Part shown: in pieces, positions 28,897 through 56,300 of the stretch
How positions within the stretch are numbered: the stretch's first letter is position 1
How the letters are laid out: each line of letters begins with the position of its first letter
From: a virus
Lineage: Duplodnaviria > Heunggongvirae > Uroviricota > Caudoviricetes
DNA: 64,000 nucleotides
Virus record (IMG/VR): IMGVR_UViG_3300028592_000006
Span: 1 to 64,000 of that record
Reading direction: 5' to 3' (one strand)
The notes under the pieces: generated by a model
The model's input: only the letters and a program-made list of their open reading frames with translations
What the model was told of the DNA's origin: nothing
Databases searched by the model: none
Program-made: the position numbers and the translations under genes

Positions 28897-29640
28897 ATGC
28901 ATTTGCACGAGCTACTGGCCGTAGAGGGCAATCAACAGACCCAGGCCAACAAGGTCCGCAAGGAACTCGAGTCCACCTTCGACAAGAAGCGACACCTGTT
29001 CGAGCGGAAGATTGTCACCTTCACTTCCAGCACCGAGGGATCGGAGCCGGTGGTTGAGGAACAATCGGACATCAACACCACGGTCTCGAAGGAGATCCAG
29101 TGGATCAAGGGACACCTGACCAAGGCTCTCGACCTTGAATACCAGATTGCCGAGACCAACACCATTGCCCGTGCGGACGTGGAGCTGGACGACGGATCGG
29201 TTCTACTCAAGGCGGTGCCTGCCACCTCGCTGCTGGAGCTACAGAAGCGCATGGCAGAGCTGCTGGAGCTGGCCAAGGCCATTCCCACCCTCGACCCTGC
29301 AAAGGGCTTCCAGGCCGATCCTGCGGCCGGGGAAGGGGTGTTCCAGGCACGCATCGTCAACCGGGACCGGACCAAGAAGGTGCCGAAGGCATTCGTTGCC
29401 TACGAGGCCACCAAGGAGCACCCGGCACAGGTCCAGATGTTCAACGAGGATATCAAGACCGGCACCATCACCACCCAGGAGTGGTCGGGGATGATGACGC
29501 CTGCCGACAAGGCGGCGGTGCTGGACCGCATCGAGTCCTTGACTCGCGCCATCCGTGCGGCACGCTCACGGGCGAACACCGCGGAGGTGGATCGCAAGAA
29601 CAAGATTGGCGATGCCATCTTCACCTACATTTTCGGGTAA
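28897..29640 (+). CDS. Hypothetical protein (247 aa)
   Basis: Balanced composition; last protein gene before tRNA-like cluster. Confidence 0.55.
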   Translation: MHLHELLAVEGNQQTQANKVRKELESTFDKKRHLFERKIVTFTSSTEGSEPVVEEQSDINTTVSKEIQWIKGHLTKALDLEYQIAETNTIARADVELDDGSVLLKAVPATSLLELQKRMAELLELAKAIPTLDPAKGFQADPAAGEGVFQARIVNRDRTKKVPKAFVAYEATKEHPAQVQMFNEDIKTGTITTQEWSGMMTPADKAAVLDRIESLTRAIRAARSRANTAEVDRKNKIGDAIFTYIFG

Positions 29641-29676
29641 TTCCCATCAATGATTTCGGGTAGCCCCTAACGGGGT

Positions 29677-29740
29677 CCGAGGCTCAGGCTAAGGTTTGGA
29701 AATGAGGCTCACTCACTTCAGGCTTTTTACCCGAGGCTCA
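29677..29740 (+). repeat. Direct repeats CCGAGGCTCA (29677, 29731) and GAGGCTCA (29704)
   Basis: Read directly; precede tRNA-like cluster. Confidence 0.4.
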
Positions 29741-29790
29741 ACCCAACCGCAGCCCGCCACCGAATGCAGGCATCCATCCAAATCCAGGCC

Positions 29791-29818
29791 GGGGGTTCGA
29801 ATCCCCTCTCCGACGCCA
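29791..29818 (+). tRNA. tRNA 3' fragment (T-arm GGGGG-TTCGAAT-CCCCT, acceptor 3' strand CTCCGAC, discriminator G, CCA)
   Basis: Canonical T-loop and CCA end; no matching 5' half upstream. Confidence 0.5.
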
Positions 29819-29845
29819 TCAGCCCATCACGGTGGGTTGATCATC

Positions 29846-29870
29846 GTCGGAGTAGCTCAGTGGTAGAGCA
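29846..29870 (+). tRNA. tRNA 5' fragment (acceptor GTCGGAG exactly complementary to upstream CTCCGAC, TA, D-arm GCTC-AGTGGTA-GAGC)
   Basis: Canonical D-arm; no foldable anticodon/T-arm/3' acceptor downstream. Confidence 0.45.
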
Positions 29871-29921
29871 TGGAGATCAGGTTCGAAAGGATGCTGTCGC
29901 CCGAGGGGCACCAGGCTGCAA

Positions 29922-29993
29922 AAGCGCATAGCTCAATAGTAGAGCATTCGACTTATAATCGAACGGTTGGGGGTGCGAATCCCCCTACGCAAG
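29922..29993 (+). tRNA. tRNA-like gene, anticodon UAU (Ile-type) with poorly paired acceptor stem
   Basis: D-arm GCTC-AATAGTA-GAGC, anticodon arm TTCGA-CTTATAA-TCGAA, variable CGGTT, T-arm GGGGG-TGCGAAT-CCCCC; acceptor 5' AAGCGCA vs 3' TACGCAA pairs only 4/7. Confidence 0.4.
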
Positions 29994-29999
29994 ACAACC

Positions 30000-30040
30000 G
30001 GGGCGGGTGGCAGGCTAGTCACCCGTCCCACTTTCTTTTT
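30000..30040 (+). terminator. Rho-independent terminator
   Basis: GGGGCGGGTG-loop-CACCCGTCCC followed by ACTTTCTTTTT immediately after tRNA-like cluster. Confidence 0.65.
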
Positions 30041-30086
30041 CACCAACAACCACCATGGAAACCATCCAGCCACTGCCAATCCAGCC

Positions 30087-30326
30087 ATGAATGTCGCGGA
30101 ACTGATCGAAATACTCAAAGAGGAGGACCCGATGGCACTGGTCGTCCTGTCCCGTGATCCTGAAGGGAACGGCTTCAATGAGTGTCGTGGATTTTCCACC
30201 GACTGCTATGACCCGGACGGGCGCGAACTCGGCTTGGCGGAACTAACTCCCGAGCTCAAAGCGAAGGGCTACACCGACGAGGATGTCTTGGAGGACGGGG
30301 TGCCTTGTGTCACCCTATGGCCATGA
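30087..30326 (+). CDS. Hypothetical protein
   Basis: Internal Met MNVAELIEIL of ORF 29967-30326. Confidence 0.4.
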   Translation: MNVAELIEILKEEDPMALVVLSRDPEGNGFNECRGFSTDCYDPDGRELGLAELTPELKAKGYTDEDVLEDGVPCVTLWP

Positions 30327-30769
30327 GGAAGGCCAAGGGACCACCGAGGAAACCGAAGCGCCGGAACAGCAAGGTTGAGCGTCCCTACAACGGGGGCGAA
30401 TGGACCCTTGCCCGGATGAAGGCCTTCATCTTCTCCGCGCTCCGCGGTGCCCGCTGGCCGGTGAAATACCAGGTCATCAAGGAGGCCTTCGTCGAGCACG
30501 GCATCAACCCCAAGACCGGACGCTCCTGCAAACTGCACCGGTGCTCCGCGTGCCTCAAGCTGGTTCCCCAGAAAGAGGTGCGGGTGGATCACATCGAACC
30601 CATCGTCCCCATCGGCCATGAATGGGCGGCGGAAGGACACTTCCTTGGCACCAACTGGGACATGGTCCTGAGACGGATGTTCGTCGAATCCGAGGGCTTG
30701 CAGGCTCTGTGCGAGGGGTGCCACAATCTTAAGTCGTCAGCGGAACGGGAAGCCCGCAAGAACCAATGA
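30323..30769 (+). CDS. HNH endonuclease
   Basis: CSACLKL ... VDHIEPIVP ... LCEGCHNLK; start taken at ATG overlapping previous stop. Confidence 0.65.
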   Translation: MRKAKGPPRKPKRRNSKVERPYNGGEWTLARMKAFIFSALRGARWPVKYQVIKEAFVEHGINPKTGRSCKLHRCSACLKLVPQKEVRVDHIEPIVPIGHEWAAEGHFLGTNWDMVLRRMFVESEGLQALCEGCHNLKSSAEREARKNQ

Positions 30770-31194
30770 TCCAAGAACCATTCACCCTGGTCGGGAAAGC
30801 CCGCCAGATTGCCGCTAAAGCCCATTCCAACCAATGGCGTCGTGACGGGATCACACCCTACATCGTGCATCCGATGCAGGTGGCCTTGAGGCTATCCCAT
30901 TATCCGGAAGAAGTCCGGGCAACAGCATGGCTCCACGATGTGTTGGAGGATTCGGCCTACAAGGCGGGATTCCTACGGGAGAATGGTATCCCGGAATCCG
31001 TGATTGAAGCCGTAGTGGTGCTGACCAAGCGTGAAGGGGTCCTTTACACGGATTACATCGAGCAGATCAAAGCCCACCCATTCGCCCGGCACGTGAAAAT
31101 TGCAGACATCCTCTGCAACCTTGCCGACAACCCGACGAACAACCAGATCCGCAAGTATGCGGAAGCGCTGTTGATCCTTGTCGATCCTGCCTGA
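30766..31194 (+). CDS. HD-domain (p)ppGpp hydrolase-like protein (small alarmone hydrolase, RelA/SpoT-type HD)
   Basis: PYIVHPMQVALRL ... AWLHDVLEDS matches the His...HD...ED signature of Rel/SpoT hydrolase domain. Confidence 0.75.
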   Translation: MIQEPFTLVGKARQIAAKAHSNQWRRDGITPYIVHPMQVALRLSHYPEEVRATAWLHDVLEDSAYKAGFLRENGIPESVIEAVVVLTKREGVLYTDYIEQIKAHPFARHVKIADILCNLADNPTNNQIRKYAEALLILVDPA

Positions 31195-44390: not shown

Positions 44391-47300
44391 TTAGTCCTTG
44401 GGGAGCTGTTTCAACAGGTCTCTCCGTCGTGCCGAGCGGTAGTCCCGCAGGAACGGCAGCACCTCGCTGACCAGGTAGGCGGCAATGTCGAGCGGTTTGG
44501 CTTCTCCGACCGAACGACCGGCCAACACCGCCGCATCCACCGCGTCATACGCCACGCTGGTCGGGGCGGTCAGGTTGGCTGCCGCCTCCACCGCATTCGG
44601 CCGGTGTTCCCTCACACCCACCTTGTCGCGCTCATACCATGCCTCTGCCGGCTTCACTCCGGACGTGAGCGAGGCGGCACTCACCGCAGCATCATTCATG
44701 ATCGGCTTGATCATGCCGGTGATCGGAGAGTAACCGGCCAGCACCCCTGCCACCGGCATTGCCTGCAACAGCTCCATGCCGACCCGTGATGCAAGTTCAG
44801 CTTTAGCCGAGGCCAAAGAGGCATCCTTGTCCTTCCACGATTGGAACAATTCCTTCTGAGGGCCGACCAGCAGGTCCTTGAGCGCCGCCACGAACGGGTT
44901 GCTGTCCTTCTGGGCGGCGAGCAGGTCGTTGGCTTTCTTCTGTGCCTTCTTGGCTGCCTTCTCCTCGTCGTCACCTCCGAGCATGTAGAAGGCCATCAAC
45001 AGTAATGGCACCATGGTGTGGACCTTGCCGAACTGAAACAGGATGTTCTGACCCAGCGTGCCCACCATGTTCTCGATGGCGTCCTTCCTTGTCCGGTTCG
45101 GGTCCGGGTCGGTGTCGGGGTCGGTGGTCATCAATCCCGGAAGAAGAGCGGTCAGGTTAGAAGCGGTGGTGGCGGTGTGGTTGCTGAACCGCACCAGCGA
45201 CTTGAGCAGGCTCGACCATACCGGACTGTCAGAGTGGCTCTGGAACGGCATAGCCTTCTTGCTCATGTCCGACTGGCCCATCATGTCGTTGACCTTCATG
45301 GTGGCCATCTGGGTTGCTGCAATGGGGATCTGGCGGCTATTCAGCTCAAGCAGTCCGTCCACGTCGGCAGGGGTGTGCGGGCTTCCGCTGCGCCGCATCT
45401 CACCGAGTAACTCCGCAAGGAAGATGGCGCGGGAGATTACCTTCTCGCCCTTGCCGATGGTCAGGTTGAGAGCCGCTTCCCCGATGTTCTCATACTCCTT
45501 GAGGATCTTGCCGGCCCATGCCTTGCCTTTGCCGACCCCGAAGCGGAGCTGGTGCTTGAGTTCGTTCCTCGCCACGTCCTGGCCATCGACACCACGGAAG
45601 TTGACATAGACCGACACCTCCTTGGTGAAGGCGTTGACCTTGTCGTAGAACGTCCTGTCCGTGAACCGCGAGCTGATCAACCGTGGCAGGATGTGGAGGA
45701 AGTCCGAAGCCGTCTGCCATTCGCCGATGACCAGCTTCTTGATCGGGAAGAACACCGAGGGCGGGAAGGTCTGGTTCCACATCTGCTGTGCACTCGCCAG
45801 CGCCCGCACAATGAACACCGAGGACAAGAACCTCGTGGCCTCCGCAAACCCGGTGTTGACCACACCGATCTGCGAATCATTGAAGAGAAGGTTTTCCACT
45901 TCACCGGTGACGGCTGCAATGGCGACCTGGAACTTGCGCATGTCCTGCGAGTAGGCCGGACGCAACTGCATCTGTGGAGTGAAGATGCTGGCTTCCATCG
46001 GATCCACCACCGGCACCCCGTTCGGGCTCTTGATCCGTCCCAGCATCCTCCGGATCACGTCGTAGTTGGCACTGACGTTCGCCCGATACAACGAGTCCTC
46101 GAGGATGTTGAAGGGAGCCGATAGGCCGTTCAGGCTGATCGGCCGCAGGACCGAGGCATCCGCAGGGTTCTTCTCGTGCCGTCCGTAACCACCGTAGAAC
46201 GGCGAGTTCTTCATGGACACCACGTCCGCAGGGTCTGGAATCCACTTCCCTTCCTTGGTCACCCTGTGATCCCTTTTGGTCGGGTTGGCGGCATAGGCCA
46301 TCCGCAGCGGCACCGAGCCATACGTCTTCGGCGACGGGGTCATGCCGTCGTGCTTCCATTCGTTGTGCTGTTCACCACCCAGTGGGGTTTCCACCGGCTT
46401 GGACAACATTGCCCGGTGGACCGCCGTGGCGTTGTAGGCATCACCAAGTTGCTCGCGGATCACCTTTGCCATGTTCTCCACCGCGTCCCGCTTGCCGTCG
46501 CTGGTCTCCTTCAGGAATGCCTCCCTGAGCCCGGCAATCACCTTGCGGGCGGCAATGGCCTGTGCCTCTTCCTGGGTGGTGTTCTGGTTCTCGTAGATGG
46601 CGGTGCCGTAGTCAGCCATTGCTCCCGAATCCCTGATGATCTTCACCACTTCCTTGGCTAATGGCAGGTCGCGGATCAGGTCGAGATGGTTTGCATTCAG
46701 GAAGCGCTGCCCGAACCGGGAGAACGCCTGTGCCTGCAACTTGTCCAGGCTGGCAAGATCGCGCATCCCTTTGCTCAAGCCCTGATACCACTTCGTGAGC
46801 GCCTCGTTGATCGAGTAGCCGGAAGCATCCGACAAGCCGTCAAGCTGGGCTACCAGATAGGCCATGGCGTGGTCCTTGGCGTGCCGTCCGACCTTCTTGG
46901 CCTCCTTGGCGATGTGTTCCTGTGCCTCCTTGTGGGCTGCCTGGTGGCCCGCCCGTCCGGTGTTGCCGTCGAACCCGTGCTGGATGAATGCCAGCAGGTG
47001 CATGGCGGTCTCCCGTGCCAAGGCCGACTTGATGAAGCGCGAGCGCATCCGTCCATCCTGACCATGGGCATACCTGAGCAAGGCCTGGTTCACAGTTCCA
47101 TCCTGCACCGACAACCCGCTGACCAGCTTGGCCATCACCTGCTCGGCCTCAAGCTCCGCAAACACCCGGGCGAACAGGTCGATCAGGTTGAACTTCTGCA
47201 TGGCATCCTCGGAAGCCGCGAAGCTTCCATCCTCGATGGCCTTGAGCACCGCGTCGATCTCGTTGCGAAGCTCCTTCGGCTTGCCGGTCTTCTCGTCGAA

Positions 47301-50300
47301 CATCTCCGGCAACCCGTGGGCGTGCACCAGCTTCTCGACCAGGGAGCCGTAGAACTCCATCGCCTTCCGGGTGTTGTCCCCGTCCAGCTTCTTGTTGGTG
47401 CGCTTGGACACCACGAATTCCTCGAGTCCCTTCTTGAACTCACCGGAGAACAACTTGCCAGCCTCGACGATGCTCATCGTCTTGCCATCCGTCAGCTTGA
47501 AGCCGGTGCCCATCCAGTTGCCGGTGGGTTCCGCCGCATTGTCCATGAACGACGGACGGCCCTGGCTTGCTTGGAACGGTCCACCCACCGGATTGAATGC
47601 GCGCAGCACCAGATTCTCCAGCTTGCGGTTGACGTTGCGGGCGGTGATCCGTCCCGGAAATGCTTGCATCAGCCGTTGCTTGGCGTCGATTGGCAACAAC
47701 ACGATCTTGCTGCCGTCCACATCGTTCTCGTCGAACACCTTGCCGATCAGGTCACGACGTGCCCGGTAGTTCGAAGGAAGCCTCAACCGCTTGATCCGGT
47801 CCTTGCCCTTGGTGAATGCCATGGTTTCGCCGTTGGTGGCGAAGGCGATGGCCTCGGCGGTCATTCCCCTGAGCTTCTGTTGTTCTACTTCGCTGGCTTG
47901 ATCGAAACGCGACCGGACAATGGCGTCCTCCACCTCCGTGCGACGCACCGCTTCCTGCACCATCAGCATCGGGTTGAACCCGTTGAGAGTGTCGGTGGTG
48001 CCACGGATGCGGCGGTAGTGGTCGTCCACCCGGTCGTTGGCAATCTCGGTGAGTGCCATGCGGAGCGCTTCGCGCCTGACGTAGTAGTCCCTCTGGGCGT
48101 TCGGGTCGTTGTTATAGGCACGGGCGTTCTCGGCAATGTCCCTAGGACGCATGCCCGGGAAGGTCTCGTGGGCCGGGTCGATCAGCTCGATCTGGATGTT
48201 GCCGGACAGGTTCTTTCCGTCCGCCCCCTTGATGCCGCTCACCCGGCGATACTTGCCAAGCATCGTCCGTCCACCGGTGTCGAACTGGAGGGCTCGCTGG
48301 GCCTGCATGTTCTCGAGCTTCTTGCGGGCGTTCTCGAGCTGCCAGTTGGCATTGTCCCGTTCGGCCAGCTCCTTGCCGGTCATCAGCTTCAATTCGGCGA
48401 TCTGCCGTCCTTCCTCGGTGCTGAGAGCCAGCGATCCGATCAAGGCGTCCATCACCCCGCCCTGTTCCATCCGTCCAATCAGGGTGTCCAGGTTGTTGTA
48501 GATGTCGGTGTCGGTCATGCCTTGGGCTGCCTTGAGGAAAGCCGTGAGCTTCTCGCGGTGTTCGCGCTCCTGACCCTTCTCCTTGCCCTTGAGAGCCACA
48601 CCAAGGCCTCCGGCCAGCTCGGCGGTGAATTCCTCCAGCGCCTGGTCCATCAGGGGCTTCATGAAGCTCTGAGGGTCCAAGCCAGCCTCAAGGCGCTTGT
48701 GCTGCTGCTGCAACTCCTCGAAGTCCAGCGTGTCGGCATCACCTTCGATCAAGGGAACGTGCTGGCGGACCTTCACGTCCTTCAATCCAAGCTTCTTCAG
48801 CCGGTCGTTGACCGTGTCATTGACGATGGCGTTGATGAAGCGGGCCGACTTGTCGAACCAACGGATGTGGCGCTCCATCGCTTGCACGGCATCGGTCTCG
48901 GCATTCACGTCGAACCTGGCACGGGCGGCATCCCGGTCACGGATCAGGCGATACAGCTCGTTGAGGCGGTAGCTGGCTTGCGGCATCAGCTTGCCGAACT
49001 CGTTTTCAAGCCTCTTCTGAATCTGGTGGTTGGCCAGACGGGTCTCGTAAGCCGCACGGTCGTGGGTGCGGGTCGAAATCGAACGGGCCAGGTCACCGAC
49101 CAAGGCGGCAAGCTGCTCCTTGAGCACCGTGTTCTGCAAGTCCTCCACTTCCAGCACCCGTTCCGCCGTCAGCCTGAGTGGCTTGTTGAGAACCTCCTGC
49201 GCCTGCTCCATTTCCTTCTCAAGAGCCCACTGAGCCTCGTCCTGTCCACGGAGCGCATCCATCACCTGCTGCCGATACATCGGCAGGTTGGGGATCAGGC
49301 TTTCAGCCTCACCGAGCAAGGCGTCATCCAGCACCACTTCCACATGAGCCATTGGCACCTTGGTGGAATTCGGGTTCTTCCGCTGCGCCTGCCGGATCGC
49401 ATCGACCAGCGCCAGTCCGGCCTTGGAATCGACCGATGGCACCTTCGACAACCATGCCGACTGCTCCATGCCCCGGCGGACCATGTTCATCTTGAGCGTC
49501 ATGGTGGTGGTTCCACCGACGTTCGGGATGTTCAGGCGGTTGGCCTCTCCGACCAACAACAAGGTCGGGTCCTCGGCAATGGGTCGGTTGCGGGCCTGGA
49601 AGATCGGTCCTGCCGGCGATCCCGGTGGTTCACGGTCGAGGATTTCATGACGGGTCCGCACCTGGCCCTTCAGGCTCTTGCGGTTGGCAGGGATCATCGG
49701 GGATTCAACCCGTGGCAACAAGTCGTTGACCGCCTTGGCCCGCTCCAAGGCGCGGGCGAGATGGTTGAAGACCACCATGTCGGAAGGAGGAAGAACCTCG
49801 TTGTAAGGGTCCTTCTTATCCTCCTTGCGGGCACGGGCCTTCTCGCGCATGAACTCGCGGGTTGTAGCCTGTGCCACCTGAAGCTTCTCACCGGAGACTT
49901 CCACGTCTTCGACGGGATACTCGAAGTCTTCCGACTCCTGCTCTCCCAACCGGATGGCGACCTGATCAAGTGCCAGTTGATAGGGATCCTTGAGACGATC
50001 CTCGTCCACCGTGTCCTGTTCCAGGTCGTCCGAGTCCTCCTTGTCGAAGGAACGGAGCACTTGTTCGTGCATGTCCTCCAGATTGGCGTCCGTGGCGTCA
50101 TCAAGCTCGTAGGGGGCGTAGTCAGCAGCCACCTCGCGCAAGCGCCTCACAGCGATGCTGAGGGCATCCACGGCTTGATCCGACAAGCCGCTCTCTTCCG
50201 CTTCGTCAGGACCAAGGTAAACCTCGTCAAAGGCCGCCTTGTATTGCGGATTGGTCAGCAGGTTGGCCACCAGCAGCACATCCGATCCATACCCTTCCGT

Positions 50301-53300
50301 GAAGTTCACGGGGCTCATCAGCTCTTCGTTGCGGCTAATGCGCTGGAATTTCTCCAGTGCCCGCTGGACGAAGAACTTCTGCTCGGACTCGCGGAGCTTC
50401 GCCACATACTCCTTGAAGTGGGGAATCTTCAGCGTCTTGCCAACGTTGATGTATTCCTTGGTCACATCCCGCAAGGGATCGCCAAGCTCCTTCTCCATGG
50501 TCTCCACGTCAAAGGCCGGGGCAAACGTCTCACGGATGATCCCGGCAAGGCTTTCCACCTGTGCCCTGGCCGTTGGATCGTCACCATAGGACATCAGCAC
50601 CCGGTGGATTGCGGCTGCCTGTTCCTCGCGGCTCGCGCTGTCCTGCGGTGCCCACACGATATTCGGCTGGCCGTCCTTGCCTGGAATCACCCGCAGGCCC
50701 ACCTGCGATTGACCCATCCATTGCTCCTTGTCGGTCGGGAACACCACCAACGTCCTGCCGAGCATGTTGGTCAGCAACAACGAGACGGACGGGTTGTCAC
50801 CAAGGAAGATGTCATACTCGGAAAGGAACCGGCTGTCCTGCACGCCGAGCTTTCCTTCATCCATTCCCCTCTTGAACACCCGGGCAAGCTGGTCCTTCTC
50901 GTCCTGCGGCAGGTCGGAAGCCATCACCGCGTCCTGTGCGATGACGATTTGCTCGCCGGCATTGCGGCGGAACTCTTCAACCCGCTTGTCTTCCTTCTCC
51001 TTCTTGAACTCCAGCAGGTCGGCAAGGAACGACTCCGGATCAAAGCTTCCCGCGCTTGAAAAGCGGGACAAGCTCCAGCGCGGGTTCTTGTCGTAGAACT
51101 CCTGGGCAAGCAACTGGAATGCCTCGCCTTCCTCATTGCTGCCAGGAAACACACCCATCAGCCCGCGGACGACGATGTCCGGAATCTCACCGGTGCCGGA
51201 CAGGTGCTTGGTCATCACCATGCGCGTGAACTCGCGGGAGTCCTCGATGTTGCCTTCCGGGAAGTGGGAACGGAAACCGATGAAGGTCAGGGCCTTTGAC
51301 AGCCAGATCTTCATCCCCTTGTCGTTCTCGTTACGCAGGGCGAAGTCCTTGGCGGTCGAGGCATCGGTCACCTTATCATTCTCGAAGTCCGGCAGCGTCA
51401 CGCCGTGCTCGCCGGTGTCCGGGCGGTTTTGCGGGCGGTTGTCCGGGTCGAGGTCGTTGTAGGACTGCGGGATGACGGGCTCGAACCTTTCGTCAAAGCC
51501 GGAGTCCACCGGCTTGATGAAGGTCTCCTGATAGAAGGCTCTCCCGGCGCGGCTGTCCCCGGCTTCCGCCAGATCAAAGCGCTCCTGCTCGGTCATCCTC
51601 ACGTTGACCCGCTTCACCCGGTTGGCGATCTTCATCTCCTCGCGGCCCTTCTGGAGCTTGCGCAGATCCTCCAGCAGGTCGGAGGCATACAGCGATCCCA
51701 CCATGTAGGGGGATGCATTGGTCGCCATGTAGTTCAGGCTGAACTCGAGGCTGTGAATGGTCGGGATGTCCAACATCGAGTCCCGCAATTGGAGCATCTC
51801 CTCGTGATCCGGGCGGTAGGCACCGTCACGGATGGTCCGGATGGCTTCCTGTTCGACGTTGCGCTGCCAGTTGGCGTTGTTGAACTCCTTGACCATGCGA
51901 CGGGTCAGGCTCACCGCCGCGTTGGTCGCCCGCAGCGAGTTGACCAGGCCCATTACATGCGAGCTGCCGGCCGCCGGGGCAAGCCGCTGGTTGAAGGCCG
52001 TCAGGACATTGCTGATGCCACCCTTGAACTTCAGGTTGCCCTGTTCGTCCCTCGCGAAGCGATCCGCGAAGCTTTCCGCTTCCACGGTCTCGAAGAACTG
52101 CCCCATCTGGCCGAACAGGTGCTGCTTCATCTCCACCACGACCTTGGACAAGCCCTCAAGGCGTGGCTGGAGCAACAGGTTGGCACGGGCCGCCGGGCTC
52201 TGCCTGCCATCCATCTCGGCAATGATCTCGTCGGGATTCGCACGCTGCGCGATGTGGGCAATCCACTTCTCCGCCATGTCGATCACCTTGATCAGGTTGT
52301 TGATGCCACCGAGGTTGATTGCCTCCCCCTTCTCAAAGCGCCGGTCGATATCGAACATCTCGTCCATGCCCGGGAATTGCGGAAAAGCCATGCGAGGCGA
52401 CTCATAGTCGATCTGCTCGTATTCATTGAGGGTTCCCTCGAGATTGAATCCGGCACCTGCATGATACAGGTCGCGGTCGAAGGATGCCGGCAAGCGGTGC
52501 ATCTGGTCCGCAAGGTAGAACAACATGCGGCCGTAGCGCCCCGTGTAGGCCGCATTCGACTCGATGGCGCGCTTGTGCGCTTCGATCAATTCATGGACCT
52601 TGGAATCGTCCAGCTTGTTTGGGTTGCGCTGGTAGCCGGTGCCGGGCTTACCCGGTGGCAAGTGGCCTTCATGGTAGTCATGGCCGAAGGCATCCCCGGC
52701 TTCCACGGCTTCCGGGACATTCCTCTCGCGGAACTCAAACACTCCGGTTGGCTCTCCCGTGGCACGGGTGTCCTGCCAGCCAAGGCCGTAGTTCTCGGTC
52801 TTGTAGTCGTCGAACGAGCCAATGGCGCGGTCGGTCATGGACCGGAGCCGGGCGTTGTAATCGTTCACCGCCTTGAGATATTCCGAGAATTTCCGGTAGC
52901 GCTCTACCGAGACCGGGTCGTCAGTCGGCTTCAGCTTCGCGGCCTTCTCAAGCTCCGTGATATTGTTGGTCAGGTTGATCCGCTGTTTGACCAGTTCCTT
53001 GAACTCCTTGTGACCCTCCTGTCCTTCGACCAGGCTATCGGTGAGCGGGTTGTTGAACAGGTGGACCCGGGCGGCATTGACCACCGCATCCTTGAAGGCA
53101 TCGAAGGTCGGATAGTTCTCGGTGTCGATGAAACCGTCAGGATCAACGGTGACACCCAGCTTGGCGGCGGCACGGATCAGGGCGACCCGTCCACGGGGGC
53201 GGGAAACATCCTGCGACTGCAAATCCCGCAAGGCACCGGTGACCAGCATGGTCTCCATCCTGTTGATGCTGTCATTGACCCTTGCGAGCTCCTCGCGGGC

Positions 53301-56300
53301 ATTGCGAAGGACCGGCTTGCTCACATCGCGGGGTGCACCTTGCAGGATGAAGCCCATCAAGCCCGCGGGGTCGAACTTGTCGCCGCGCAGCCAGTTGAAG
53401 TATTCGTTCGGGTCGAACTCCAGTTCCTCCTCCTTGGCTTCCACGACCTGACGGGCAATGTAGGCGTCAGCCCACATCTTCTGGAATGCATCCTCGTCAT
53501 TGAGGGCATCCAGGGCCTTGTTCATCGCCTCAACGTCGTATTCCTTCCGTCCCTCCAACCACTTGGCGATTTCCGGATGGATCGACATCTCGAGGTTGTC
53601 GTTCACCACCACGATTTCATCCATGCCCGCCGCCGGGAAGATCTCACGCAAGTCGCGGATCTGCATCAGCGCCTCGCTGTGCTTCTTGGCCACCGCACGG
53701 ATTTCATCTTCTCCCTTGCCGGTGAACGTGCGGAGCCGGTGTTCCATGGTCTGGGTGACCTTCTCACGCATCTGGTCAACGTCGCCGCGCAGGTTGGCAT
53801 CGTTGTAGAACTGGTTGAGCCGGTCGAGCAATTCGAGGTGCTTCGGGTCCAGCTTGCTGCGGAAGAACCGCATGGCGAGGATCTTGCGCACCCGCTCAGT
53901 GTAGCGGCGGACCAGCTCGCCGATGGTCTTCATCAGCCTGGTGCCCTTGCCGTCCTTGCCGGTATCCTCCTGCATCGAGCGGATCAACCGGCGGGCATCG
54001 GCATTCGCCTGTTCGGAGTAGGACCCGGTGGTCCGCAACTGGTGAAGCTTTCGGATGAATTCATGGGCGATGAGCATCGTCTCCTCATCCGACTTGATCG
54101 CCTTCGGGTTCTTGCGGTCGAAGGTTGGCTCGCGGTGCGACAAGCGCTCCTTGACCGTCTCGCGGAAAATGTCGTGGAAGGGATGCTTGGTGTCCCCGGC
54201 CACTGCGGTGATCATTTTTTCAAGCTCACGCGGCTTGAACTTCTCCTGATCGACGGTGAGCAAGTGGATTTGCTCCTCGTCCACCCAGTTGGACAACAGG
54301 CGTGCCGCCTCAAGGGCCGCCAGCAGGCGGGTCCGCGGGTTGAGCGGGGCGTCACCGACAAGGCTGCGCAGCACCGCCAGCGTGCGCTTGTAGTCCACCT
54401 CCATGACCGGCCGCATCTCCTTGCGGGTTGCCTTCCCTTGTGGCTTGCCGTCCGGGAATTGCGAGACCGGCACCTCCACCTCACGAAAGGCCACCTGCAT
54501 GAAGTGCTCGGAAGTGGAGATGTTCTCCTCGTCGTCGATCTGCATCTCAACCGGGTCCGATGCATCCGGTGCAACTTCCTTCATCACCGCCTTGATGAGC
54601 TTCTTCAGCTCCTTGACCGCGGACTTCTCATCACCGCGCAACAAGGTTTCCAAACCCTCCTTGTCGGTCAGGTCCTTGGCCATCTGGATGAGGCGGGTCT
54701 TGTGCCACATTGCATTGGACCCGTTGAGCCTGCTCTTGCTTTCAGGATCGACGCTGAACTTCGCCTCCAGGTTGAACTTGAAGAACTCGTATTGTCCGTT
54801 CTCCACCTTGTGGAGCACCAGCACGTTGTCGGGGTCTCCTTCAATCGAGATGATGTCACCCACCCCCAGCGGAAGGCCCTTGCCCTTGGCCGGGGTGTAG
54901 ATGAACGACTGGGCACCTTCGACGATGAGAGGCACCTCACCGGGCTTTTCCTCCTTCTTCGACCACGTTCCTCCACGGTCATCCTCCTTGCCTTCCTCAA
55001 GGTTGGCCTTGCGGACGAAGTATTTCGGCACCTTCGATGGTGCTGGCTTCTCCTCCACCGGCTTGCCGCTGGCTTGTAATTTGATGCTCTTGCCCTTCGC
55101 GAGCTTCTCAACCTTGGAAGCAATGTGCTCCTCCTTGTCCTCAATCGAGTCGTCGGCCATCACCTCGTCGAGGTAGGCCGGCGAGATCCCGATTTGGCCG
55201 GTTCGGGTGTCGAGCCACACTCCTTCGTCCGACTTGTAACGCTCCTTGTTCTGCGAGAGCTTGGCGGATTCCGGCAGGTCGGCTTCCTCGAGTTCCGGAA
55301 GTTCCTTTTCGTCGAGGATGTCGCGAATGCCACGGACCACCGAGTCACGTTCCGCCTTGGAGCCGCTGTCAGCCCGCAAGGTAGGCTTGGAAGGCTCCTC
55401 CTCTTCTACTGCTTCGGTTTCAGCTTCTCCCTCAGTTGCACTGCCTGTTCCTTTGGAATCCTCGCCACTGCCTGGAGCCACGTCAGACACTCCTGTTCCG
55501 GCTTTGTTGCCACTGCTTCCATCACCTGCTGGCTTGGCACCTGTGCCAGGCTCATCAGTTGCCACAGTCCGAGCTGCGGCGTCTCCGGTGGTGGCTGCGG
55601 GCTTGGTGGCGGGAGTTGTGTTGGATTCATTGGTCTTTGATTCGGCTTTGGTTTCCTTGGTTGATGGTTCCTTGGCTGGTTCGGTTTCCTTGGCCCAGTC
55701 GTCGTAGAAGGGATCGGCACCGGGCAACGAGTCGTCGGTGGCTGCATCAGCAAAGCGCTCGGAGAGGAAGTTATGGGCCACGGTCAGCTTGGCGGCCTCT
55801 TCAGCACCGATGTGACGCTCGGTGGTGGTGCCATCCGGATTGACGGTGGTGAGCTTGGCTCCGGCATGGGAACGGCCGTCGATGGTAATCGGGGTGATCT
55901 GGACACCGGGGGATACCCGGACGGGCTTGTCTTCCTCCAGTTTCACGTCGGTGCGCCATTCCTTGCCGGCGGATGGCTTGTAGCCCATCTCATCAAGCAC
56001 CGCTCCGGGAGTGGCCTTTTCCTGGCCTTCAGTGGTGCCTGTGGCTGAGGATTGGCCTTCTTTGGTATCAGGAGCCACGCCGGTGCCGTCGAGCCCTCCT
56101 GAGCCATCCTGAGCGCCAATATCGACTTGGAGGCCATTGCGTGCCGCTGCGGTCAGGATACGGCTCTTCTCCTGCACGCTCATCTTCGGGTCAGCCAGCA
56201 CCTCCGCCACCCGCACAGCTTGCTCGCCAGCCACGTTGGCCAGCTTGTTGTGATCCTGGAATTGATCAACGTTGGCGACGATGGATTTCCACTGGTCGGT

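What the first reader, a model, noticed from the sequence alone, without database searches (positions are those of the whole stretch)
29677..30040. Cluster of tRNA fragments and a tRNA-like gene in permuted order, closed by a strong terminator
A canonical tRNA 3' end (T-arm GGGGG-TTCGAAT-CCCCT, acceptor strand CTCCGAC, discriminator G, encoded CCA) sits 27 nt upstream of a canonical tRNA 5' beginning (GTCGGAG-TA-GCTCAGTGGTAGAGC) whose acceptor strand is its exact complement. So the two halves of one tRNA occur in 3'-then-5' order, and no intact tRNA can be folded from either. A third tRNA-like unit (anticodon loop CTTATAA = UAU, good D/anticodon/T arms) follows, but its acceptor stem pairs at only 4/7 positions. 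Triple GAGGCTCA/CCGAGGCTCA direct repeats precede the cluster, and a strong GC-rich hairpin plus T-run terminator follows it. Candidate explanations are an integration/excision scar (att-site graveyard), a tRNA-derived regulatory RNA, or decaying phage tRNA genes. A permuted tRNA gene that needs BHB splicing is unlikely in a bacterial system.
Basis: seen in the sequence. Interest (0 to 1): 0.75.

Follow-up and report, generated by a model that had tools for sequence, protein, structure and literature searches.

The report
Phage tRNA-mimic RNA with unknown partner protein
The "shuffled tRNA pieces" are one conserved RNA gene, a Y-RNA-like tRNA mimic that always sits just downstream of an uncharacterised protein gene (DUF7873) in hundreds of phages and bacteria and never next to Ro60, the only protein partner described so far for such RNAs.

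Summary
The parts are not fragments. Window 29749-29919 (+) is one structured RNA. A long imperfect stem closes a tRNA-like domain in the order T-arm, 7-bp acceptor stem, D-arm. The acceptor stem is closed by G-CCA plus a 27-nt linker. Rfam's only match is YrlA (Y RNA-like), at 33.6 bits, below the curated cut-off. A YrlA next to a phage Ro60 gene scores about the same (36.6 bits).

The gene just upstream (28897-29640) belongs to Pfam DUF7873. The same RNA lies 0.1-1.4 kb downstream, on the same strand, in 82 of 84 phage loci and 59 of 80 bacterial loci that carry DUF7873. Every helix covaries. The tRNA Levitt pair covaries as G15:C48 or A15:U48. N-CCA follows the 3' acceptor strand in 52 of 58 RNAs.

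No Ro60/TROVE gene occurs in the window, in 163 related loci, or in one complete phage genome. The Ro60-binding motif is not enriched. DUF7873 has no known fold.

Best reading: a Ro60-independent branch of YrlA-like RNAs. It is probably cut by RNase P and trimmed to CCA, giving a two-piece tRNA mimic that works with DUF7873. I found no paper or database entry describing this. The scar and decaying-tRNA readings are refuted.

The parts
28897..29640 (+). DUF7873 protein gene (247 aa), the conserved partner of the RNA
   Evidence: Pfam PF25283, 227 bits. There are 1329 homologues, 55-70% identical among the best 120. It is the only gene conserved across 164 loci. The AF2 model has pLDDT 89.9 and no informative fold match.
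29664..29675 (+). Small hairpin CCCC-TAAC-GGGG just after the stop codon
   Evidence: Read from the sequence. The close relative L289 has CCCGG-GCAA-CCGGG at the same place. Function not tested.
29677..29742 (+). Leader with three GAGGCTCA repeats (29679, 29704, 29733)
   Evidence: The leader is almost identical in L289, whose DUF7873 protein is only 70% identical. Role unknown; it could be a promoter, an operator or a processing site.
29749..29782 (+). 5' strand of the long imperfect closing stem, ending in the A-rich loop side ...CCAAA
   Evidence: MFE fold. True flanks pair much better than mismatched flanks: -24.2 vs -15.1 kcal/mol, p = 3e-18. AAA is conserved just before the inner helix.
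29783..29790 (+). Inner 4-bp helix, 5' strand (TCCA), plus 4-nt variable loop GGCC
   Evidence: This helix was not part of my search descriptor. It is 91% paired and all 4 pairs covary. C48 of the Levitt pair is at 29790.
29791..29807 (+). T-arm GGGGG-TTCGAAT-CCCCT
29808..29818 (+). 3' acceptor strand CTCCGAC, discriminator G, encoded CCA
   Evidence: N-CCA occupies this position in 52 of 58 family members.
29819..29845 (+). 27-nt linker that folds into a 10-bp hairpin; presumed to be removed during maturation
   Evidence: Fold. Linker length varies from 7 to about 150 nt, and the linker is A/U-rich in most members. The close relative L289 has only GCCTCAT here.
29846..29854 (+). 5' acceptor strand GTCGGAG, then U8 and A9. 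The predicted RNase P site lies between 29845 and 29846.
   Evidence: 7/7 complementary to the 3' strand. All 7 pairs covary across the family. U8 is invariant. Cleavage is inferred from M. smegmatis YrlA (PMC4201824).
29855..29869 (+). D-arm GCTC-AGTGGTA-GAGC
   Evidence: A14 invariant, G18G19 in 54/55, G15 pairs with C48.
29870..29888 (+). Position 26 (A), inner helix 3' strand TGGA, then the conserved loop motif GATCAGGTTCGAAA
   Evidence: A26/G44 covaries with G26/A44. Family consensus is G-A-U-Y-A-R-R-N-U-N-A-A-R. GAT[CT]AG occurs in 32% of members against 2% of random windows.
29889..29919 (+). 3' strand of the closing stem
29924..29991 (+). tRNA-like unit with anticodon UAU, weak acceptor stem, G55 in the T loop and no CCA. 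It starts 4 nt after the RNA.
   Evidence: Rfam tRNA 54 bits; missed by ARAGORN. The homologous unit in L289 has anticodon UGU, a 5/7 acceptor stem and the same TGCGAAT loop. At least 11 of 60 related loci have a tRNA at this position, and the ones I inspected lack CCA.
30000..30045 (+). Terminator-like hairpin (12 bp) with T-rich tail; likely end of the transcription unit
   Evidence: The stem is kept in L289 through a compensatory change.

Best explanation
Window 29749-29919 (+) encodes one non-coding RNA of the YrlA (bacterial Y RNA-like) type. It is a tRNA mimic. T-arm, acceptor stem and D-arm form the tRNA 'top half and elbow'. A long imperfect helix with a conserved internal loop takes the place of the anticodon arm.

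Because the RNA chain enters and leaves through that helix, the T-arm and 3' acceptor strand are encoded before the 5' acceptor strand and D-arm. That is why it looks like a permuted tRNA.

This RNA belongs to a large branch that is linked to a 247-aa protein of unknown fold (Pfam DUF7873), encoded immediately upstream on the same strand, and not to Ro60.

Inferred maturation:
1. The unit is transcribed together with, or just after, the DUF7873 gene, through the tRNA-like unit, to the terminator at 30000-30045.
2. Host RNase P cuts 5' of G29846, and probably also 5' of the downstream tRNA-like unit at 29924.
3. The linker is trimmed back to the encoded CCA at 29816-29818.
4. The result is a two-piece, CCA-ended tRNA mimic held together by about 12 bp of acceptor/T stack and about 25 bp of closing stem.

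Inferred function: the RNA acts with the DUF7873 protein as an RNP. The conserved internal loop is the likely protein site, and the tRNA-like end engages host tRNA-handling machinery.

Shown here: identity, structure, conservation, gene linkage and absence of Ro60. Inferred only: processing, protein binding and cellular role.
For: **Topology and family**
- Rfam's only non-tRNA match at this locus is YrlA, full length, 33.6 bits, E = 3e-5.
- The MFE fold gives closing stem, T-arm, extended acceptor hairpin and D-arm.
- A YrlA next to a real phage Ro60 gene (phage Sparky) scores 36.6 bits in Rfam. It scores 41.8 bits with my model built only from DUF7873-linked RNAs. The two groups therefore recognise each other.

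**Linkage to DUF7873**
- 3/3 annotated phages (Gordonia, Arthrobacter, Rhizobium) have a YrlA hit downstream of DUF7873.
- The strict descriptor hits 68 of 84 loci on the + strand and 0 on the - strand. The relaxed descriptor and the model raise this to 82/84.
- In an independent bacterial set, 59/80 loci have a hit, and 67 of 68 hits lie on the gene's strand.
- DUF7873 is the only gene shared by the 164 loci.

**Structure**
- Covariation score 0.937, against 0.224 shuffled and at most 0.19 when partners are slid.
- The inner helix, not used in the search, is 91% paired and all its pairs covary.
- Levitt pair: G15:C48 in 47, A15:U48 in 7, one exception. U8 and A14 are invariant. 26/44 is A.G or G.A.
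- Closing stem: p = 3e-18.

**Processing signals**
- 7-bp acceptor stem; N-CCA in 52/58; the base before the 5' strand is usually U.
- Actinophage copies lack CCA, as do most of the tRNA genes next to them (3 of the 4 checked in L002, both in L001). The other tRNAs checked in CCA-encoding loci end in CCA.
- M. smegmatis YrlA, with a 7-bp acceptor stem, is cut by RNase P and receives CCA in vivo (PMC4201824).

**No Ro60**
- No TROVE domain in any predicted window ORF.
- tblastn with a Pfam-validated Ro60 finds nothing in the window or in 83 phage loci, or in 80 bacterial loci.
- The complete genome of phage Ziko has DUF7873 and the RNA but no Ro60.
- The Ro60-site motif is not enriched.
Against: - There are no expression data, so processing, two-piece form and protein binding all rest on analogy.
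- DUF7873 is mildly acidic (pI 6.0) and has no recognisable RNA-binding fold. It does have many invariant basic residues.
- The close relative L289 encodes only CC, not CCA, and has a 7-nt linker. Several bacterial copies have 6-8-nt loops without CCA. Cleavage may therefore not be universal.
- The Rfam score is below the curated threshold.
- My descriptor required perfect T, acceptor and D stems, so the '98% paired' figure for those helices is by construction. The covariation, the inner helix and the tertiary pairs are not.
- 47 of the phage RNAs were used to train the model.
Confidence: 0.72

Rival explanations
1. It is an ordinary Ro60-dependent Y RNA. The phage RNA binds the host's Ro60 (Rsr) and tethers it to PNPase, as in Deinococcus, Salmonella and Thermus phage phiLo. 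DUF7873 would be an unrelated neighbour.
For: It matches Rfam YrlA, and my model cross-hits a Ro-linked phage YrlA. The window has ACCGAATG at 29760-29767, one mismatch from GNCGAAN0-1G. Phage Ro60/Y RNA pairs are documented (PMC4201824; PMC12135203).
Against: No Ro60 gene occurs in the window, in 163 related loci or in a complete phage genome. In contrast, nearly all best-scoring YrlA candidates in the published survey lie within 4 kb of a Ro60 gene on the same strand. The Ro60 motif is at background frequency in the family. Ro60 phages are mostly Mycobacterium and Streptomyces phages. DUF7873 phages are mostly Vibrio, Rhizobium, Klebsiella/Serratia and Gordonia phages. DUF7873 is linked in about 140 loci and is the only conserved neighbour.
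Confidence: 0.08
2. The RNA is only a cis-acting 3' element of the DUF7873 mRNA. It would be a tRNA-like structure that recruits RNase P or CCA-adding enzyme to define and protect the mRNA 3' end, like MALAT1/mascRNA or plant-virus tRNA-like ends. It would have no function in trans.
For: The RNA is always downstream on the same strand. No sigma-70-type promoter and no terminator is predicted between the gene and the RNA. After RNase P cleavage the upstream product would end in T-arm, acceptor strand and CCA.
Against: Many bacterial loci carry two tandem copies. The internal loop and closing stem are conserved beyond what a processing signal needs. The spacing to the gene varies from about 0.1 to more than 1 kb. 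My evidence does not exclude this reading, and it could coexist with a role in trans.
Confidence: 0.12
3. It is a true circularly permuted tRNA gene. The ends of the precursor are joined and the linker is removed, giving a decoding tRNA, as in the red alga Cyanidioschyzon merolae.
For: The order is 3' half, then 5' half, with a perfect 7-bp acceptor stem, discriminator, CCA and all elbow tertiary pairs.
Against: In place of a 5-bp anticodon stem and 7-nt loop there is a 4-bp helix, an asymmetric internal loop and about 25 further base pairs of variable length, open at the end. No anticodon-like loop is conserved. No BHB motif was seen, though I did not run a dedicated search. Acceptor stems and discriminators vary freely (C 22, U 18, G 11, A 7), so no amino-acid identity is evident.
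Confidence: 0.04
4. It is a two-piece (permuted) tmRNA.
For: The gene order matches that of permuted ssrA: an acceptor piece ending in CCA, an intervening segment, then the 5' acceptor strand. There is a weak Rfam beta_tmRNA hit of 17 bits.
Against: ARAGORN, which also reports tmRNA genes, finds none. The Rfam score is 17 against a cut-off of 84. There is no G3:U70 in any of 55 members. The D-arm is canonical, unlike in tmRNA. I saw no room for a tag reading frame or pseudoknots, because a tRNA-like gene follows within about 55 nt of the D-arm.
Confidence: 0.02
5. It is an integration/excision scar or a pair of decaying phage tRNA genes.
For: The region lies in the tRNA area of a phage-like genome. 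The adjacent tRNA-like unit is indeed imperfect.
Against: Compensatory changes keep every helix and the Levitt pair. The element is present in 82/84 phage loci and 59/80 bacterial loci, always next to the same gene. No Pfam integrase match appeared among the predicted window genes scanned.
Confidence: 0.01

Closest known systems
YrlA, the bacterial Y RNA-like tRNA mimic (Rfam RF02553; Chen et al. 2014, PMC4201824), especially M. smegmatis YrlA
   Same: The order of elements is the same: closing stem, variable loop, T-arm, acceptor-like stem, D-arm. The D stem is the same nearly invariant GCUC/GAGC, and the Levitt pair covaries in the same way. The two groups recognise each other with covariance models. 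M. smegmatis YrlA has a 7-bp acceptor stem, is cut by RNase P and gains CCA, giving two pieces.
   Different: There is no Ro60/TROVE gene nearby, and none in a complete phage genome. The Ro60-site motif GNCGAAN0-1G is not conserved. A different conserved internal loop is present (AAA / GAUYARRNUNAAR). N-CCA and an A/U-rich linker are usually encoded, instead of a 3-4-nt loop. The obligate neighbour is DUF7873.
Two-piece tmRNA from permuted ssrA genes (alpha-proteobacteria, cyanobacteria; from my own knowledge)
   Same: The gene order is permuted, with the CCA-ending acceptor piece first and an intervening segment removed by processing. The mature RNA is held together by base pairing.
   Different: There is no G3:U70, no tag ORF and no pseudoknots. 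The D-arm is canonical. ARAGORN and Rfam do not call it tmRNA.
Circularly permuted tRNA genes of Cyanidioschyzon merolae (from my own knowledge)
   Same: The 3' half is encoded upstream of the 5' half. The linker between acceptor strands is removed by the enzymes that process tRNA ends.
   Different: Those genes yield normal decoding tRNAs through a circular intermediate made by the splicing machinery. Here there is no anticodon arm and no evidence of joining.
tRNA-like 3' elements processed by RNase P (MALAT1 mascRNA, plant-virus tRNA-like structures; from my own knowledge)
   Same: A tRNA-like fold recruits tRNA-maturation enzymes to a transcript that is not a tRNA.
   Different: Those elements are contiguous, not permuted. 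They are eukaryotic or from RNA viruses, and they are not paired with a dedicated protein gene.

Membership tests
YrlA / bacterial Y RNA (Rfam RF02553) | tRNA-like domain in the order T-arm, acceptor-like stem, D-arm, closed by a long stem | tested here: met
   Rfam alignment over model positions 1-114; MFE fold; covariation of all helices.
YrlA / bacterial Y RNA (Rfam RF02553) | tRNA tertiary signature, including covarying Levitt pair G15:C48 / A15:U48 | tested here: met
   47 G:C, 7 A:U, 1 exception. U8 and A14 invariant. G18G19 in 54/55.
YrlA / bacterial Y RNA (Rfam RF02553) | Score at or above Rfam's gathering threshold (69 bits) | tested here: not met
   33.6 bits in the window; 28-36 bits in four relatives. 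A Ro60-linked phage YrlA (Sparky) also reaches only 36.6 bits, so the threshold excludes accepted phage members too.
YrlA / bacterial Y RNA (Rfam RF02553) | Encoded within about 4 kb of a Ro60/TROVE gene, on the same strand (Chen et al. 2014) | tested here: not met
   No TROVE hit in the window's predicted ORFs. tblastn with Ro60 finds nothing in the window, 83 phage loci or 80 bacterial loci, nor in the complete Ziko genome.
YrlA / bacterial Y RNA (Rfam RF02553) | 5'-proximal GNCGAAN0-1G motif (proposed Ro60 site) | tested here: not met
   The window has ACCGAATG, one mismatch. In the family the motif occurs in 3% of 5' flanks, the same as in random windows.
YrlA / bacterial Y RNA (Rfam RF02553) | Physical binding to Ro60 and tethering of PNPase | not testable with these tools
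   Needs immunoprecipitation or EMSA.
tRNA (RF00005), unit 29791-29869 | Contiguous cloverleaf with an anticodon arm | tested here: not met
   ARAGORN finds 0 genes. Rfam gives no tRNA hit here. The anticodon arm is replaced by the closing stem.
tRNA (RF00005), unit 29924-29991 | Cloverleaf above the Rfam threshold | tested here: met
   54 bits against a threshold of 29.
tRNA (RF00005), unit 29924-29991 | 7-bp acceptor stem and invariant U55 in the T loop | tested here: not met
   4 of 7 pairs. Rfam aligns a 5-bp stem with a C.A mismatch. The T loop is TGCGAAT. ARAGORN rejects it. Its homologue in L289 is similarly imperfect.
Two-piece (permuted) tmRNA | G3:U70 alanine identity pair, tag reading frame, pseudoknots | tested here: not met
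   No U:G at the third acceptor pair in 55 members. ARAGORN finds none. Rfam beta_tmRNA scores 17 bits against 84.
Circularly permuted tRNA gene (C. merolae type) | Precursor ends form a bulge-helix-bulge motif and rebuild an anticodon arm after joining | tested here: inconclusive
   The ends form a long imperfect helix of variable length. No anticodon-loop-like consensus is present. Joining itself cannot be tested here.
Phage attP / tRNA-fragment scar | Non-functional remnant next to an integrase, with no selection on pairing | tested here: not met
   Strong compensatory covariation. No Pfam integrase match among the 48 predicted window proteins scanned.

The most novel reading that the evidence does not exclude
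DUF7873 and this RNA form a previously unrecognised two-component RNP, widespread in phages and in several bacterial phyla. The RNA would use the host's own tRNA-maturation enzymes (RNase P, 3' trimming, CCA-adding enzyme) to become a two-piece, CCA-ended tRNA mimic. DUF7873, with a new fold, would take the place that Ro60 holds for classical Y RNAs. The mimic could then engage, titrate or redirect machinery that reads the tRNA acceptor end or elbow. Candidates are ribosomes, EF-Tu, nucleases, and toxins that modify the tRNA CCA end.
Probability: 0.5. Interest if true: 0.9.

Novelty: new variant of a known kind. Interest (0 to 1): 0.8.

Why it matters
In everything I could find, bacterial and phage Y RNAs are defined by their partnership with Ro60. 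Searches for them started from genomes that carry a TROVE gene.

This locus shows that the same tRNA-mimic architecture exists in a second, large lineage with a different, uncharacterised protein partner:
- 378 IMG/VR viral contigs,
- 181 matching stretches in GTDB species-representative genomes,
- 75 GenBank phage records.

Three consequences follow.
- It gives a first functional lead for the Pfam family DUF7873.
- It offers an easily testable case of host tRNA-processing enzymes building a two-piece non-tRNA.
- It provides tractable experimental systems, namely the cultured Gordonia, Klebsiella, Vibrio, Rhizobium and Arthrobacter phages, for asking what tRNA mimicry by Y-like RNAs is for. 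That question has been open since 2014.

It also matters for annotation. tRNA finders miss these genes, and Rfam's threshold excludes them.

Tried and rejected
- **tRNA/tmRNA finder.** ARAGORN on the window gave nothing.
- **Phage DNA similarity.** Megablast of 10 kb found no match. The distant search of the locus found only tRNA-like matches to the third unit.
- **DUF7873 in other libraries.** No hits in PHROGs, NCBIfam, PADLOC or PDB sequences.
- **Literature.** 'DUF7873' gives 0 papers. Searches on 'YrlA', 'permuted tRNA' with phage, and Y RNA with phage-encoded RNAs found nothing that links such RNAs to any protein other than Ro60.
- **Conserved neighbours.** All-vs-all ORF clustering of 164 loci found none apart from DUF7873. 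The SpoT-like hydrolase and HNH genes downstream in the window are not conserved neighbours.
- **Reverse test (RNA without DUF7873).** A DNA pattern scan of viral contigs returned mostly tandem tRNA genes (113 of 126 matches). Only 13 were permuted-type candidates, too few to decide.
- **Readings rejected.** tmRNA, integration scar and decaying tRNA genes; reasons are given under the rival explanations.
Full report
**1.

The features lie at these coordinates:

| Feature | Coordinates |
|---|---|
| T-arm GGGGG-TTCGAAT-CCCCT | 29791-29807 |
| 3' acceptor strand CTCCGAC | 29808-29814 |
| Discriminator G and CCA | 29815-29818 |
| 27-nt linker | 29819-29845 |
| 5' acceptor strand GTCGGAG | 29846-29852 |
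| U8, A9 | 29853-29854 |
| D-arm GCTC-AGTGGTA-GAGC | 29855-29869 |

ARAGORN reports no tRNA or tmRNA in the 64 kb. At curated thresholds Rfam reports only the third unit, 29924-29991, as tRNA at 54 bits. The three GAGGCTCA copies and the terminator-like hairpin 30000-30029 are also real.

**2. What the 'permuted halves' are**

With relaxed thresholds, Rfam aligns 29761-29902 over the full length of the YrlA (Y RNA-like) model at 33.6 bits, E = 3e-5. YrlA RNAs are tRNA mimics. T-arm, an acceptor-like stem and D-arm follow one another, and the whole domain is closed by a long stem (Chen et al. 2014, PMC4201824).

The MFE fold of 29740-29925 gives this architecture:
- a closing stem, 29749-29782 with 29889-29919;
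- an inner 4-bp helix, TCCA/TGGA;
- a 4-nt variable loop;
- the T-arm;
- an acceptor stem extended by a 10-bp hairpin in the linker;
- the D-arm.

**3. Context**

The window is phage-like. It encodes ERF, a DnaB-type helicase, HNH and MazG proteins, and a 4652-aa ORF. It has no close relative among GenBank phages. The gene that ends 109 nt upstream of the RNA, 28897-29640, matches Pfam DUF7873 at 227 bits.

**4. The RNA travels with DUF7873**

*Annotated phages.* tblastn finds DUF7873 in 75 phage records: Vibrio, Rhizobium, Gordonia, Klebsiella/Serratia, Arthrobacter, Ralstonia and cyanophages. I inspected three (Gordonia phage Ziko, Arthrobacter phage Racecar, Rhizobium phage RHph_TM30). In each, an unannotated gap downstream of the gene holds a full-length YrlA hit of 31-36 bits.

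*IMG/VR viral contigs.* These hold 378 DUF7873 loci, of which I fetched 80. I wrote a strict descriptor: 5-bp T stem, TTCRANN loop, 7-nt strand, 3-130-nt insert, a perfectly pairing 7-nt strand, 2 nt, then a 4-bp D stem with GG in the loop. It hits 68 of 84 loci on the gene's strand and none on the other strand. A relaxed descriptor and a covariance model (R1) bring this to 82 of 84. One of the two misses is a truncated locus.

*Bacterial genomes.* In GTDB species-representative genomes, 181 matching stretches encode a DUF7873 relative. They come from Cytophagales/Saprospiraceae, Planctomycetota, Myxococcota, Actinomadura/Spirillospora, Thiomargarita and others. R1 was trained only on phage RNAs. 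At E <= 1e-7 it finds the RNA in 59 of 80 loci. 67 of 68 hits are on the gene's strand and nearly all lie 0.1-1.4 kb downstream. Many loci carry two tandem copies.

*Neighbours.* All-vs-all clustering of ORFs from 164 loci shows that DUF7873 is the only conserved gene. In the bacterial loci I checked, the neighbours are ordinary cellular genes. The module is therefore not confined to prophages.

**5. The structure is under selection**

I aligned 55 distinct RNAs, with the variable insert after N-CCA removed by me (A4).
- All 20 pairs show changes on both sides.
- The covariation score is 0.937, against 0.224 for shuffles and at most 0.19 when partners are slid.

The T, acceptor and D stems were required by my descriptor, so their pairing percentage is by construction. 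Three tests are independent of it.
- The inner 4-bp helix was not in the descriptor. It is 91% paired and all its pairs covary.
- Tertiary positions behave as in tRNA. U8 and A14 are invariant. G18G19 occurs in 54/55. The Levitt pair is G15:C48 in 47 members and A15:U48 in 7, with one exception. Positions 26/44 are A.G (24) or G.A (16).
- The 50-nt flanks pair far better with their own partner than with flanks from other loci: mean -24.2 vs -15.1 kcal/mol, p = 3e-18.

**6. Signals for tRNA-type maturation**

- The 3' acceptor strand is followed by N-CCA in 52 of 58 RNAs.
- The insert is 7 to about 150 nt long, A/U-rich, and usually ends in T.
- The two actinophage copies lack CCA. So do most of the tRNA genes next to them (both in L001, 3 of the 4 checked in L002). 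The other tRNAs checked in CCA-encoding loci end in CCA.
- M. smegmatis YrlA is the only characterised YrlA with a 7-bp acceptor stem. It is cut by RNase P at the equivalent site and gains CCA in vivo, leaving two pieces bound to Ro60.
- By analogy I predict cleavage between 29845 and 29846, and trimming to A29818.

The RNA's closing stem ends 4 nt before the tRNA-like unit at 29924. At least 11 of 60 related loci have a tRNA at the same place. RNase P acting on that unit would then create the RNA's 3' end. All of this paragraph's processing steps are inference.

**7. It is not a Ro60 system**

- No TROVE domain appears in the predicted window proteins, including the 4652-aa ORF.
- I recalled a human Ro60 sequence from memory and validated it by Pfam (TROVE and vWA_Ro60). 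It finds Ro60 in 358 phage records, mostly Mycobacterium and Streptomyces phages.
- The same query finds nothing in the window or 83 phage loci, nothing in 80 bacterial loci apart from one weak hit to its vWA region (E = 1e-4) on the opposite strand, and nothing in the complete Ziko genome, which has DUF7873 and the RNA.
- Conversely, two phage Ro60 loci lack DUF7873.
- The proposed Ro60 site GNCGAAN0-1G is at background frequency, 3% vs 3%.
- The family has its own conserved internal loop instead. AAA sits 5' of the inner helix, and G-A-U-Y-A-R-R-N-U-N-A-A-R sits 3' of it. In the window this is GATCAGGTTCGAAA, 29875-29888.

The family is still related to YrlA. The Ro60-linked YrlA of phage Sparky scores 36.6 bits in Rfam and 41.8 bits with R1. 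Tandem tRNAs score about 28 bits with R1.

**8. The protein**

DUF7873 is strongly conserved, 55-70% identity among the best 120 of 1329 homologues. Many basic residues are invariant: K31, R32, H33, K117, R118, K136, R152, R158, K161, R223 and R225. The AlphaFold2 model is confident, pLDDT 89.9. It matches nothing informative in PDB or BFVD. No family library names it, and no paper mentions it.

**9. Close relative**

L289 carries a DUF7873 protein 70% identical to the window's. Compared with the window:
- the GAGGCTCA leader is almost unchanged;
- the acceptor stem is the same;
- the linker is only GCCTCAT, with no hairpin and CC instead of CCA;
- the RNA scores 68.9 bits with R1, although it was not in the training set;
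- a homologous tRNA-like unit follows, with anticodon UGU instead of UAU;
- the terminator stem is kept by a compensatory change.

The linker hairpin and the full CCA are therefore dispensable details.

**10. Verdict**

The locus is one RNA gene of a Ro60-independent, DUF7873-linked branch of YrlA-like tRNA mimics. A tRNA-like unit and a terminator follow it. Identity, structure and linkage are shown. Two-piece maturation, binding to DUF7873 and biological role are inferred.

I found no description of this association in Rfam 15, Pfam, PHROGs, NCBIfam, PADLOC or the searchable literature. I rate it a new variant of a known kind, with high interest.

Noticed in passing
window 29677-29742; L289 3262-3328: The leader between the DUF7873 stop codon and the RNA holds three GAGGCTCA repeats. 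It is almost identical in a relative whose DUF7873 protein is only 70% identical, so it is more conserved than the coding sequence. It could be a promoter, an operator or a processing signal.
   Followed up: partly
window 29924-29991; L289 3481-3553: The tRNA-like unit after the RNA has a T loop TGCGAAT, with G in place of the invariant U55. It has a defective acceptor stem (4/7 in the window, 5/7 in L289, mismatches at different positions) and no CCA. The anticodon differs between the two relatives (UAU vs UGU).
   Followed up: partly
L012 4020-4092, L016 4020-4092, L021 4248-4319, L028 4027-4099, L037 4047-4118, L041 2017-2089: The tRNAs directly downstream of the RNA in these phage loci share the acceptor stem NATCGAC/GTCGATN. 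Most have a mismatched 1-72 pair, and all lack an encoded CCA. Their anticodons differ (UGU, UCU, GCA, CAU). The other tRNAs checked in related loci of this set end in CCA. They look like a special tRNA class tied to the module.
   Followed up: partly
L107 3881-3942 and 4011-4109; L121 3598-3694 and 3744-3843; L145 3947-4061 and 4393-4507; also L141, L142, L143, L150, L128: Many bacterial DUF7873 loci carry two tandem copies of the RNA. In Actinomadura/Spirillospora the acceptor stem is closed by only 6-8 nt and has no CCA. This recalls the YrlA/YrlB pairs of Ro60 loci.
   Followed up: partly
L015 6648-6703, L033 6245-6297, L054 5122-5173: These are additional units of T-arm, complementary 7-nt strands and D-arm, with 3-8-nt loops and no CCA. 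They lie 1-3 kb further downstream in phage loci. They may be a second RNA type or chance tandem tRNAs.
   Followed up: no
window 30305-30769 and 30766-31194: An HNH endonuclease gene is followed by a 142-aa HD-domain protein similar to the SpoT/RelA hydrolase domain (a small-alarmone-hydrolase type). From my own knowledge, some RelA/SpoT-type toxins pyrophosphorylate the tRNA CCA end, so the neighbourhood is suggestive. However, the gene is not a conserved neighbour of the module.
   Followed up: partly
window 44391-58349 (-): A 4652-aa ORF with coding-like GC3 and no Pfam match at E <= 0.001.
   Followed up: no
L289 3590-4310: About 700 nt of GC-rich sequence after the terminator has no called gene and no Rfam match. 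It is absent from the corresponding place in the window.
   Followed up: no
L084 3598-3697 (Mycobacterium phage Sparky): The YrlA next to a real phage Ro60 gene scores only 36.6 bits against Rfam's 69-bit threshold. Standard Rfam annotation therefore misses phage Y RNAs in general.
   Followed up: partly
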